DNA from: an uncultured Synergistales bacterium
Lineage (GTDB): Bacteria > Synergistota > Synergistia > Synergistales > JAFGMB01
NCBI GenBank assembly: GCA_964410915.1
Contig: CAYPIU010000005.1
Location: forward strand, 10,834 to 74,833
Length of the DNA: 64,000 nt
Direction: 5' to 3'
Positions 61,719 through 62,483 of the stretch are shown piece after piece. The notes under the pieces are model-generated. The model was not told the origin of the DNA and did no database searches. It saw only the letters and a program-made list of their open reading frames with translations. The stretch's first letter is position 1. Each line of letters opens with the position of its first letter. The position numbers and the translations under genes are program-made.

Positions 61719-62483
61719 TCAGCGAATCTGCACCGCTTTTTTGACTTTTTCCAGACTTTCCTCTGTCAGACCAAGTAGGGGACCGATCTCTTCCAGCTGA
61801 GGAAATGCTCCCCAACCTGCCAGAAAACCGTTGACCCTTGCAACTGCAGTTGAATTTATTAGATCATTATCATCAGGATAGTATTTTTTGAATTCTTCCA
61901 GTATGGCAGAATGCATTTTTAAACTGTATTTCTGATGATAATTTTCCGCCATATAGAATACTTTAAATGGGGTTACAAGAGTCTGTATCTTTTTTGAGTT
62001 TTCTTTTTCCCATTTCTCTATTGATCTCAATATTTCTGATTCTTGCAGATCATCGTGGGAAAATATGATGGACATATATTGTTTTGACCAGGTTTTTCTT
62101 GAAGGGTCATGACTTTTCCAGAAAATATCAAGAAGCTCACTGTAAGATATTTTCTTTGGGTCAAAATCTATCTGTATGGTCTCCGTATGATCTCCAAGTT
62201 CATAATAAGTAGGATTCTCTTTCGATCCTCCCGAATAACCAACTCTTGTTCTTATAACACCCGGGATGATACCAAACCTGGCATCAGGACCCCAGAATCA
62301 GCCAAGGGCAAAAGTAGCGGTTTCGTAATTATCGGGGATATTTTTGTCAATAGGCGGAACCAGTTGTGTCTTAACATCTGAATACTCCACAGAACATGCC
62401 TCCCTTTGCGGAAATATATGGAATACCAAAAAGAGAATAACTAAAACGACAGTTAGGTTTGTGAATATTTTATCGATACTCAT
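61719..62483 (-). CDS. msrA: Selenocysteine-containing methionine sulfoxide reductase A with N-terminal TM/signal segment (254 aa)
   Basis: ORFs 62298..62483 and 61719..62075 are one frame joined by TGA 62298-62300: [12 protein letters not shown], then [19 protein letters not shown]..HDP and AENYHQKY. Confidence 0.92.
62262..62294 (-). promoter_or_regulatory. Bacterial SECIS-like hairpin of msrA
   Basis: mRNA: lower stem UGGGGU/AUCCCG, upper stem GAUGCCA/UGGUAUC, loop GGUU starting 19 nt after the UGA. Confidence 0.75.

What the first reader, a model, noticed from the sequence alone, without database searches (positions are those of the whole stretch)
61719..62483. Hidden selenoprotein: Sec-MsrA with membrane/export leader and no resolving Cys
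The TGA sits in the invariant GCFW motif (GUFW), the frame is continuous, and a two-stem SECIS-like hairpin with a GGUU loop follows. The catalytic domain contains no Cys; the only Cys is in the leader (EACS). Sec-MsrAs are known from a few bacteria; here the N-terminal hydrophobic segment suggests an envelope location.
Basis: partly seen in the sequence, partly recalled or inferred. Interest (0 to 1): 0.68.

Follow-up and report, generated by a model that had tools for sequence, protein, structure and literature searches.

The report
Membrane-anchored selenocysteine MsrA gene
This is a real gene for a selenium-containing methionine sulfoxide reductase (a protein-repair enzyme) whose in-frame TGA is read as selenocysteine; the enzyme type is already known and crystallised, and only its membrane or export leader is unusual.

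Summary
On the minus strand, 62483..61719 is one 254-codon frame with a single internal TGA (62300-62298). It sits at the catalytic position of the MsrA motif (G-U-F-W-G) and is followed by an 8-bp hairpin with a GGUU loop.

The TGA is not an error. It is identical in independent assemblies. A sister lineage (~91% aa) keeps it, with dN/dS about 0.2 on both sides and a compensatory U-A to C-G change inside the hairpin. At least 120 metagenome contigs carry TGA at this codon with the frame running on for about 190 aa.

Codons under the hairpin are strongly biased (Arg69 is NGG in 73/73). Codon-shuffled versions of the window gene fold far worse (-10.0 against -18.4 kcal/mol).

The closest characterised relative is Clostridium oremlandii CoMsrA (48% identity). 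It is a native "1-Cys" selenoprotein with no Cys, a C-terminal helical domain and glutaredoxin-dependent recycling. Sec-MsrA without a resolving Cys is therefore already known.

What differs is the N-terminal signal anchor. Of 80 complete Sec orthologues, 66 have a hydrophobic N-terminus and 25 have a lipobox, so an envelope location is likely but unproven.

Sec machinery could not be checked; the organism looks like Synergistota. Verdict: new member of a known kind, modest interest.

The parts
61719..62483 (-). msrA selenoprotein gene, 254 codons plus stop; one continuous frame through an internal UGA
   Evidence: Translation. Pfam PMSR E 6e-42, TIGR00401 above cut-off. dN/dS 0.23 against the sister lineage with no extra stops or indels.
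62493..62498 (-). Shine-Dalgarno-like GAGGTG, 9 nt upstream of the ATG
   Evidence: Read directly from the sequence. It supports M1 as the start, so the leader is translated.
62412..62468 (-). Codons 6-24, hydrophobic segment IFTNLTVVLVILFLVFHIF; predicted uncleaved signal anchor
   Evidence: Mean hydropathy 2.4 over a 17-residue window. The leader is under purifying selection (dN/dS 0.15-0.19). No A-x-A site or lipobox follows it (sequence).
62394..62396 (-). Codon 30, the only Cys (context PQREAC/S)
   Evidence: Kept in the sister lineage. The context fails the lipobox rule because R and E occupy -3 and -2. In 25 of 80 orthologues a Cys in this region lies in a canonical lipobox.
62298..62300 (-). 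UGA = selenocysteine codon 62, at the catalytic position of G-U-F-W-G
   Evidence: Aligns with the catalytic Cys of homologues and with Sec16 of CoMsrA. Conserved as TGA in the 120 metagenome contigs returned by the pattern scan and in the sister lineage.
62260..62295 (-). Bacterial SECIS element. Lower stem 62295-62290 with 62265-62260; upper 8-bp stem 62286-62279 with 62274-62267; apical loop GGUU 62278-62275
   Evidence: Fold, codon-shuffle control, covariation on 111 orthologues, synonymous-codon bias, compensatory U-A to C-G change in the sister lineage.
61908..62321 (-). MsrA catalytic domain (residues 55-192)
   Evidence: Pfam PF01625. 55% identity to the CoMsrA catalytic domain. The AF2 model superposes on 4W8C at 2.2-2.4 A.
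61722..61907 (-). C-terminal extension (residues 193-254), homologous to the helical domain of CoMsrA
   Evidence: The phmmer alignment runs to CoMsrA residue 205, 33% identity in this part. Conserved YPD...ST(A)xAR(V)NG...LGL motifs in the family. Predicted helical but at low confidence. Pfam PF20939 itself did not reach E 0.01 on this protein.

Best explanation
[quoted passage not shown] During translation, the hairpin that starts 11 nt after UGA-62 (8-bp stem, GGUU loop) is bound by the elongation factor SelB carrying Sec-tRNA(Sec), so the UGA is read as Sec and not as stop. Sec62 attacks the sulfoxide of Met-S-O and releases Met, becoming a selenenic acid. Because the folded part has no Cys, this intermediate must be resolved from outside, by a thiol oxidoreductase or through a transient dimer as described for CoMsrA. 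The C-terminal helical domain supports the active site as in CoMsrA. Unlike CoMsrA, this protein starts with a 19-residue hydrophobic segment and no cleavage site. That segment most likely anchors the protein in the inner membrane with the catalytic domain in the periplasm of a diderm bacterium (probably Synergistota), where it would repair oxidised envelope proteins. Shown here: the continuous frame, the TGA position, conservation, selection and the RNA structure signals. Inferred from the characterised homologue: Sec insertion and the chemistry. Inferred from sequence rules and orthologues: topology. Unknown: the reductant. My confidence is about 0.9 for 'genuine Sec-MsrA of the CoMsrA family' and about 0.6 for 'catalytic domain outside the cytoplasm'.
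For: (1) TGA at the catalytic codon, with PMSR and TIGR00401 matches.
(2) The same sequence appears in independent assemblies and runs.
(3) The sister lineage L135-L138 keeps TGA with no further stops or indels. dN/dS is 0.15-0.19 upstream and 0.24-0.27 downstream of the TGA.
(5) Hairpin evidence. Stem pairs 21-35 and 22-34 change on both sides in 21 and 23 of 111 sequences; the covariation score is 0.143 against 0.085 for shuffles, reached by 0 of 500. 91% of 105 genes fold better than their codon shuffles, Wilcoxon p = 5e-18. Arg69 is NGG in 73/73 against 41% background, and Gly71 is GGG in 100/111 against 23%; Gly65 and Gly75, outside the upper stem, are unbiased. The window's own stem has a U-A to C-G swap in the sister lineage.
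(6) 48% identity over 198 aa, including the helical domain, to CoMsrA, a natively Sec-containing 1-Cys MsrA recycled by Grx and not Trx (PMC4479559, PMC4333827).
(7) TGA is an ordinary stop for 20 of 61 window ORFs, so there is no code reassignment.
(8) Export: 66 of 80 complete Sec orthologues have a hydrophobic N-terminus, 25 have a canonical lipobox and 13 an RR motif (for example SRRIFLK...FIQAC). The flank charge difference of the window protein favours N-in/C-out (sequence; sister lineage MRLDK). A TamB/AsmA-like gene nearby indicates an outer membrane.
(9) Nearest named relatives of the window's IlvD are Thermovirga and Synergistales, a phylum described as selenoprotein-rich (PMC9312934).
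Against: No selA, selB, selC or selD was found: the tRNA scan found nothing and none of about 38 window ORFs scanned is one. The rest of the genome could not be read. There is no RNA or protein evidence. The Cys-homologue control is weak: of six Cys-type loci, one scores as well in the codon-shuffle test and one keeps an almost perfect hairpin, so hairpin potential alone does not separate Sec from Cys forms. The window's hairpin uses a register shifted by one nucleotide from the majority. Topology is only predicted: positive charges on the two flanks are nearly balanced, C30 is not in a lipobox, and no reductant gene is linked. Pfam's helical-domain model does not reach this protein, and the AF2 placement of that domain has low confidence.
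Confidence: 0.85

Rival explanations
1. A genuine Sec-MsrA whose catalytic domain faces the cytoplasm. The hydrophobic N-terminus would be an N-out/C-in tether, or merely a membrane-associating helix, and the enzyme would be recycled by a cytoplasmic glutaredoxin-like protein as for CoMsrA.
For: The only characterised family member is cytoplasmic and uses Grx (PMC4479559). Positive charges flanking the segment are nearly balanced (K5 against R27 and K38). There is no cleavage site or lipobox. 14 of 80 Sec orthologues have no leader. No periplasmic reductant gene is linked.
Against: Orthologues carry clear export signals: 25 lipoboxes, 13 RR motifs and classical signal peptides in Cys homologues. 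The net charge difference (N flank +1, or +2 in the sister lineage; C flank -1) favours N-in/C-out.
Confidence: 0.3
2. A pseudogene: a nonsense mutation of the catalytic Cys codon, with translation ending after 61 residues.
For: Gene callers split it into 61-aa and 118-aa products. No Sec machinery was seen in the window.
Against: TGA is kept in the sister lineage at dS about 0.2, with dN/dS 0.24-0.27 downstream and no stops or indels. TGA stands at the same codon in the 120 contigs returned by the scan, nearly all with long open frames. RNA-level selection acts on the hairpin. The orthologue is a proven selenoprotein (PMC4479559).
Confidence: 0.03
3. The UGA is decoded by something other than Sec: genome-wide reassignment (code 4 or 25), or near-cognate read-through inserting Trp or Cys.
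For: One public annotation of an orthologue reads the codon as Trp (P0014).
Against: TGA ends 20 of 61 window ORFs, including well-matched enzymes. Trp or Gly at the catalytic position would inactivate MsrA. The conserved hairpin 11 nt downstream is the signature of SelB-dependent decoding.
Confidence: 0.03
4. A sequencing or assembly error of a TGC/TGT codon.
For: None beyond the prior.
Against: Six assemblies from two centres are identical at the TGA codon, as are contigs of four separate runs at 4-23x word depth, and the TGA is also present in diverged strains.
Confidence: 0.01

Closest known systems
CoMsrA, the 1-Cys type selenoprotein MsrA of Clostridium (Alkaliphilus) oremlandii OhILAs (PDB 4LWJ, 4LWK, 4U66, 4W8C; Pfam PF01625 + PF20939)
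   Same: Sec at the catalytic position in GUFWGPD. No Cys in the catalytic or helical domains. C-terminal helical domain. 48% identity over 198 aa, E 2.5e-57. Best structural match.
   Different: CoMsrA is 209 aa with Sec at position 16 and no leader, so it is cytoplasmic and recycled by (seleno)glutaredoxin. The window protein has about 47 extra N-terminal residues: a 19-residue hydrophobic anchor, one Cys (C30) and the conserved IPPID stretch. The host is a probable diderm Synergistota bacterium, not a Firmicute.
Other reported Sec-MsrAs: Syntrophobacter fumaroxidans (PMC1794560), Chlamydomonas and other algae, and the 'GUFWG/H' motif in reviews (PMC13188914)
   Same: UGA replaces the catalytic Cys codon of MsrA. 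The bacterial forms have a SECIS just downstream of the UGA.
   Different: Eukaryotic forms use a 3'-UTR SECIS and have resolving Cys residues. I could not compare the sequence with the S. fumaroxidans protein.
Envelope methionine sulfoxide repair systems: Neisseria PilB (Trx-MsrA-MsrB) and E. coli MsrPQ (PMC6316033)
   Same: Methionine sulfoxide repair outside the cytoplasm; this is what the window protein would work like if its domain is periplasmic.
   Different: PilB uses Cys chemistry with its own fused thioredoxin-like recycling domain. MsrP is a molybdoenzyme fed by the quinone pool. The window protein has neither a fused reductant domain nor a linked partner gene.
E. coli fdhF-type bacterial SECIS (from my own knowledge of the literature)
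   Same: A hairpin inside the coding sequence whose upper stem begins 11 nt after the UGA, with G and U in the apical loop about 23-25 nt from the U of UGA.
   Different: The sequence is unrelated. There is no bulged U in the window's stem. The family uses two stem registers (loop GGUU or GGUUC). No Rfam model matches.

Membership tests
MsrA (PF01625 / TIGR00401) | Sequence match to the PMSR domain above the curated cut-offs | tested here: met
   Pfam 143.8 bits (cut-off 23.7); TIGR00401 129.6 bits (cut-off 108.1).
MsrA (PF01625 / TIGR00401) | Catalytic nucleophile in the G-C/U-F-W-G motif at the N-terminus of the first helix | tested here: met
   The UGA aligns with the catalytic Cys column; F63, W64 and G65 are invariant.
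Bacterial selenoprotein | In-frame UGA at a position where homologues have a redox-active Cys, conserved as UGA in orthologues | tested here: met
Bacterial selenoprotein | SECIS hairpin immediately downstream of the UGA, with G/U in the apical loop at the canonical distance | tested here: met
   The stem starts 11 nt after the UGA, with a GGUU loop. Supported by covariation, codon bias and a compensatory change. This is structure prediction only; there is no SelB binding data.
Bacterial selenoprotein | Genome encodes selA, selB, selC (tRNA-Sec) and selD | not testable with these tools
   None found in the 64-kb window. Circumstantial support: the organism is Synergistota-like, a selenoprotein-rich phylum (PMC9312934).
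Bacterial selenoprotein | Selenium actually incorporated into the full-length product | not testable with these tools
   Needs 75Se labelling or mass spectrometry. No RNA runs were found.
1-Cys type selenoprotein MsrA (CoMsrA-like) | No resolving Cys in the catalytic or C-terminal domain | tested here: met
   The only Cys is C30 in the leader or linker. 32 of 80 Sec orthologues likewise have no Cys in the predicted mature part.
1-Cys type selenoprotein MsrA (CoMsrA-like) | C-terminal helical domain (PF20939) | tested here: inconclusive
   The pairwise alignment to CoMsrA covers its residues 145-205 at 33% identity, and the region is predicted helical. However, PF20939 gives no hit at E 0.01, and the model's domain placement is poor: rmsd 12 A over both domains.
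1-Cys type selenoprotein MsrA (CoMsrA-like) | Recycling by glutaredoxin and not thioredoxin | not testable with these tools
   This is a biochemical property. No Grx or Trx gene is linked in the window or in orthologue neighbourhoods.
Exported or membrane-anchored protein | N-terminal signal peptide, lipobox or signal anchor | tested here: met
   A 19-residue hydrophobic segment at residues 6-24. No SPase I or II site is present, so it is read as a signal anchor. No dedicated predictor such as SignalP or TMHMM was available.
Bacterial lipoprotein | Lipobox [LVI][ASTVI][GAS]C at the end of the h-region | tested here: not met
   The window has R-E-A-C, with charged residues at -3 and -2, five residues after the h-region. 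25 of 80 orthologues do meet the rule.

The most novel reading that the evidence does not exclude
The window protein belongs to a large, apparently undescribed exported branch of the 1-Cys selenoprotein MsrA family, comprising signal-anchored, Sec- or Tat-targeted and lipoprotein forms. About four fifths of the metagenomic Sec orthologues sampled here fall in it. These enzymes would work in the periplasm or on the cell surface of anaerobes, where neither glutaredoxin nor thioredoxin is available, and so would depend on an unidentified extracytoplasmic reductant. Alternatively, in this protein, they might use the lone membrane-proximal Cys30 as a resolving residue. Four literature searches in the open-access library found no paper describing exported bacterial Sec-MsrA.
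Probability: 0.5. Interest if true: 0.45.

Novelty: new member of a known kind. Interest (0 to 1): 0.3.

Why it matters
For annotation, the gene is currently split in public gene calls into a 61-aa and a 118-aa fragment, and in at least one orthologue the codon is read as Trp. The same mis-call affects a large set of metagenomic msrA genes. For biology, Sec-MsrA itself is established. The modest new point is that most environmental members of the CoMsrA family carry export signals. That raises a concrete, testable question: how is a selenenic acid on a 1-Cys enzyme reduced outside the cytoplasm? The family also gives a clean example of RNA-structure selection acting on codon choice and even on amino-acid pairs (Ser68/Ser72 against Ala68/Ile-Val72).

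Tried and rejected
- Searches used a pattern with two N too many (71 instead of 69 nt). This wasted the single genome-contig scan and one metagenome scan. The one hit, L007, turned out to be a frameshifted orthologue. Because of this I have no list of named genomes carrying the gene and no A. oremlandii DNA to compare SECIS elements.
- Rfam finds nothing for the hairpin at the gathering threshold or at E 10. No curated family matched the hairpin.
- A scan of the window for other in-frame-TGA genes found no credible second selenoprotein.
- The search for sel genes or thiol-redox partners in the window found none among about 38 ORFs.
- Neighbourhood statistics on 127 flanking ORFs of orthologues show only MsrB recurring (8 cases). 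There is no Trx, DsbD or CcdA, so no reductant clue.
- The Cys-homologue control (6 loci) did not cleanly separate from the Sec genes. I rely on codon-shuffle, codon-bias and compensatory-change evidence instead.
- Organism names are withheld for the window's own proteins. Taxonomy rests on IlvD neighbours only.
- No RNA-seq run holds the gene.
The model is mediocre (pLDDT 71.5) and does not settle the helical-domain geometry.
- Archaeal-type 3'-UTR SECIS: considered and dropped, because the window is bacterial (c-di-GMP riboswitch; Synergistota-like IlvD).

Full report
**1. What is in the sequence**

The feature lies on the minus strand. An ATG at 62483 is preceded by GAGGTG nine nucleotides upstream (62498-62493). 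It opens a frame that runs to a TGA-TAA at 61721-61716. The frame has 254 sense positions and one internal stop, TGA at 62300-62298 (codon 62).

The surrounding peptide is [32 protein letters not shown]. With Cys in place of the stop, the protein matches Pfam PMSR (E 6e-42, residues 55-192) and NCBIfam TIGR00401 msrA above its curated cut-off. In an alignment with 19 full-length homologues, the TGA falls on the near-invariant catalytic Cys column.

**2. Is the TGA real?**

The 61-residue N-terminal fragment is recorded on 22 contigs. Six loci, from five ENA assemblies and one JGI assembly, are identical to the window across the gene apart from one distant substitution in two of them, and all keep TGA. 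Logan contigs from four separate sequencing runs, at word depth 4-23, show no difference over 1 kb. These are contigs and not raw reads, so minority variants cannot be excluded, but an assembly error can.

**3. Is the frame translated through the TGA?**

Four contigs (L135-L138) come from a sister lineage that differs at about 44-50 codons. They keep the TGA and have no other stop and no indel. Nei-Gojobori dN/dS is 0.22-0.23 overall, 0.15-0.19 upstream of the TGA and 0.24-0.27 downstream. Both halves, including the leader, therefore evolve as coding sequence.

On a wider scale I scanned the metagenome collection with a 69-nt degenerate pattern: GGN TGA TTY TGG GGN, then N27, GGN GTN, N15, GGN TAY. 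Nearly all have an open frame of 190-207 codons after the TGA and 40-200 before it.

TGA is not reassigned in this genome. It terminates 20 of 61 long ORFs in the window.

**4. The hairpin**

Positions are counted from the U of UGA as 0.
- Nucleotides 14-21 (UGAUGCCA) pair with 26-33 (UGGUAUCA) around the loop GGUU.
- GGG 8-10 pairs with CCC 35-37.
- CU 5-6 pairs with GG 39-40.

The 11-nt spacer and a G-U in the loop at positions 23-25 correspond to what I recall of the E. coli fdhF element. That comparison rests on my own knowledge and was not tested here. Four independent lines show the structure is selected and is not a by-product of the protein sequence.

(a) Codon shuffles. Shuffles keep the protein and the gene's codon usage. 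They give -10.0 +/- 2.6 kcal/mol for the 42 nt after the UGA, against -18.4 for the real sequence; none of 100 was as stable. Across 105 orthologues, 91% are more stable than their shuffles (Wilcoxon p = 5e-18).

(b) Covariation. In a gapless alignment of 111 distinct orthologues (A2), stem pairs 21-35 and 22-34 change on both sides in 21 and 23 sequences. The pair types seen are CG, UG, AU, UA and GC, and UA, GC and UG respectively. The covariation score is 0.143 against 0.085 for shuffles (reached by 0 of 500) and exceeds all slid controls.

(c) Codon bias under the stem and loop.

| Position | Observed | Background |
|---|---|---|
| Arg69 | NGG 73/73 | 41% |
| Gly71 | GGG 100/111 | 23% |
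| Ser68 | UCC 66/68 | 23% |
| Ser72 | AGY 64/64 | 33% |
| Gly65 and Gly75 (outside the upper stem) | all four codons used freely | unbiased |

(d) A compensatory change in the window's own stem. The sister lineage has GAU to GAC (synonymous, Asp67) together with AUC to GUC (Ile72Val). This turns the U-A pair into C-G.

Most orthologues use a register shifted by one nucleotide on the 3' arm (loop GGUUC). The window and ten others use the GGUU-type register. 85 of the 111 have at least five uninterrupted pairs closing the loop; the window has eight, the maximum.

One control was weak. Of six Cys-type homologues fetched for comparison, one folds as well relative to its codon shuffles (L129), and another keeps an almost perfect copy of the hairpin after a TGT codon (L131). 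This probably reflects recent Sec-to-Cys conversion. It means hairpin potential alone does not discriminate Sec from Cys forms.

Rfam has no model that matches.

**5. What it is**

The best solved-structure matches are the Clostridium (Alkaliphilus) oremlandii MsrA entries 4U66, 7C13, 4LWJ and relatives (E 2.5e-57). The alignment covers window residues 54-251 and CoMsrA residues 8-205. Identity is 48% overall, 55% in the catalytic domain and 33% in the C-terminal part.

CoMsrA is a native selenoprotein. It is classified as a 1-Cys MsrA because it has Sec at the catalytic site and no Cys at all. The Sec form is 20-fold more active than the Cys form. It is not reduced by thioredoxin but is reduced by glutaredoxin. 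It can form a catalytic-residue-linked dimer during turnover (PMC4479559). Its C-terminal helical domain is essential for the active site (PMC4333827). Pfam names that domain [quoted passage not shown] (PF20939). A 2026 review lists the GUFWG/H motif for bacterial Sec-MsrA (PMC13188914).

An AF2 model of residues 63-254 (pLDDT 71.5) finds the CoMsrA structures first. The catalytic domain superposes at 2.2-2.4 A. The helical region is modelled with low confidence, so the fold test of that domain is inconclusive. PF20939 itself does not reach E 0.01 on this protein.

**6. What differs: the leader**

CoMsrA has Sec at residue 16. The window protein has Sec at residue 62, preceded by:
- MSIDK;
- a 19-residue hydrophobic stretch (residues 6-24);
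- PQREAC(30)SVEYSDVK;
- a conserved IPPID stretch.

There is no A-x-A cleavage site. The Cys is not in a lipobox, because R and E occupy positions -3 and -2. I therefore read the hydrophobic stretch as an uncleaved signal anchor. The charge difference across it is +1 on the N side (+2 in the sister lineage, MRLDK) and -1 on the C side. This favours an N-in, C-out orientation. That is an inference from a rule, not a prediction from a dedicated tool.

The stronger argument comes from relatives. Of 80 complete Sec orthologues:
- 66 have a hydrophobic N-terminal segment;
- 25 have a canonical lipobox (for example LALSSC, LLASC, LVFGC);
- 13 have a twin-arginine motif (for example SRRIFLKGVGFACLGFTPFIQAC);
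- 14 have no leader, like CoMsrA.

Cys-type homologues also include classical signal peptides. The organism has an AsmA/TamB-like gene nearby, and its IlvD is closest to Thermovirga and Synergistales (73-80% identity). It is therefore probably a diderm Synergistota bacterium, and "outside" means the periplasm.

32 of the 80 orthologues have no Cys in the predicted mature part. The others have one to three Cys residues near the C-terminus.

**7. How it most likely works**

SelB carrying Sec-tRNA binds the hairpin and decodes UGA-62. The nascent chain is inserted with its N-terminus in the cytoplasm and its catalytic and helical domains in the periplasm. Sec62 reduces Met-S-sulfoxide and becomes a selenenic acid. 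An external thiol then restores it.

The steps up to decoding are supported by sequence evidence here and by the characterised homologue. The topology is inferred. The reductant is unknown. No thioredoxin-like, DsbD/CcdA or glutaredoxin gene is linked, either in the window or among 127 genes flanking orthologues, where only MsrB recurs, in 8 cases. Cys30 would sit just outside the membrane on a flexible linker and could in principle act as a resolving residue. Nothing tests this.

**8. Limits**

Synergistetes are described as a selenoprotein-rich phylum (PMC9312934), which is only circumstantial support. No transcript data exist in the runs served. My first two collection scans used a mis-counted pattern, so I have no list of named genomes.

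**9. Verdict**

This is a correctly spotted, genuine selenoprotein gene that public gene calls split in two. It is a new member of a known and structurally characterised kind (1-Cys Sec-MsrA with helical domain).

The leader makes it a membrane-anchored, probably periplasm-facing version. The survey suggests that exported versions dominate this family in the environment. Four searches of the open-access library found no description of this.

That is a modestly interesting lead, chiefly because it poses the question of the extracytoplasmic reductant. It would not surprise a specialist.

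Noticed in passing
window 48143-48226 (-) and 45925-48114 (-): A c-di-GMP-I-GGC riboswitch (Rfam RF03167, 67.6 bits) lies directly upstream of a 729-aa ORF that has no Pfam match at E 1e-5. This may be an uncharacterised c-di-GMP-controlled protein.
   Followed up: no
L007 6000-6070 (-), JAKLPW010000415.1, Anaerolineae MAG: An orthologous TGA-msrA carries a 2-nt insertion (GA) between the UGA and the SECIS stem, relative to its near-identical relative L124. This shifts the frame. It is either a pseudogene or an assembly error in a species-representative genome.
   Followed up: partly
L131 3001-3711 (+): A Cys-type homologue (TGT) keeps an almost perfect SECIS-like hairpin, GACGCCCGGUUCGGGCG, at the same place. 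This looks like a 'fossil' SECIS from a recent Sec-to-Cys change. L129 also keeps strong folding.
   Followed up: partly
L008 863-1741 (+), JGI Ga0665409_0125586: The public protein P0014 reads the Sec codon as Trp (WFWG), but the DNA has TGA. This is an annotation artefact. An msrB (SelR) gene with a 75-residue N-terminal extension sits 18 nt upstream.
   Followed up: partly
L064, L069, L115, L061/L094, L108 (pattern hits outside the family): Other MsrA subfamilies also have TGA at the catalytic codon but lack the C-terminal extension and use different downstream hairpins. L064 looks like an MsrB-MsrA fusion (RYCLNS motif upstream). L069 and L115 have Ala/Arg/Ser-rich N-termini reminiscent of algal transit peptides.
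   Followed up: no
alignment A2, columns 18-37 (window 62286-62267): The family uses two hairpin registers that differ by one nucleotide on the 3' arm. The split is tied to the amino acid at position 72: Ser/AGY with Ser68/UCC against Ile or Val with Ala68/GCC. RNA pairing therefore appears to drive a co-variation between two residues of the protein.
   Followed up: partly
window 55507-57360 (-): A D-Ala-D-Ala ligase is followed directly by a VanX-type D-Ala-D-Ala dipeptidase (Peptidase_M15), next to a TRAP transporter (DctPQM). It is an unusual pairing outside vancomycin-resistance clusters.
   Followed up: no
window, whole: There are at least five TRAP transporter DctM genes (415-2463, 14556-15875, 24034-25335, 50585-51871, 57379-58803). 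There are also many amino-acid and 2-oxoacid enzymes: an E1/E2/E3 complex at 5935-14510, two class-III aminotransferases, alanine racemase and IlvD. This fits an amino-acid-fermenting Synergistota-like organism.
   Followed up: partly
window 62344-63033 (+): The 229-aa TTG ORF that overlaps the msrA 5' end on the opposite strand is an over-extension. The called gene is the 133-aa bacterial PH-domain protein at 62632-63033.
   Followed up: yes
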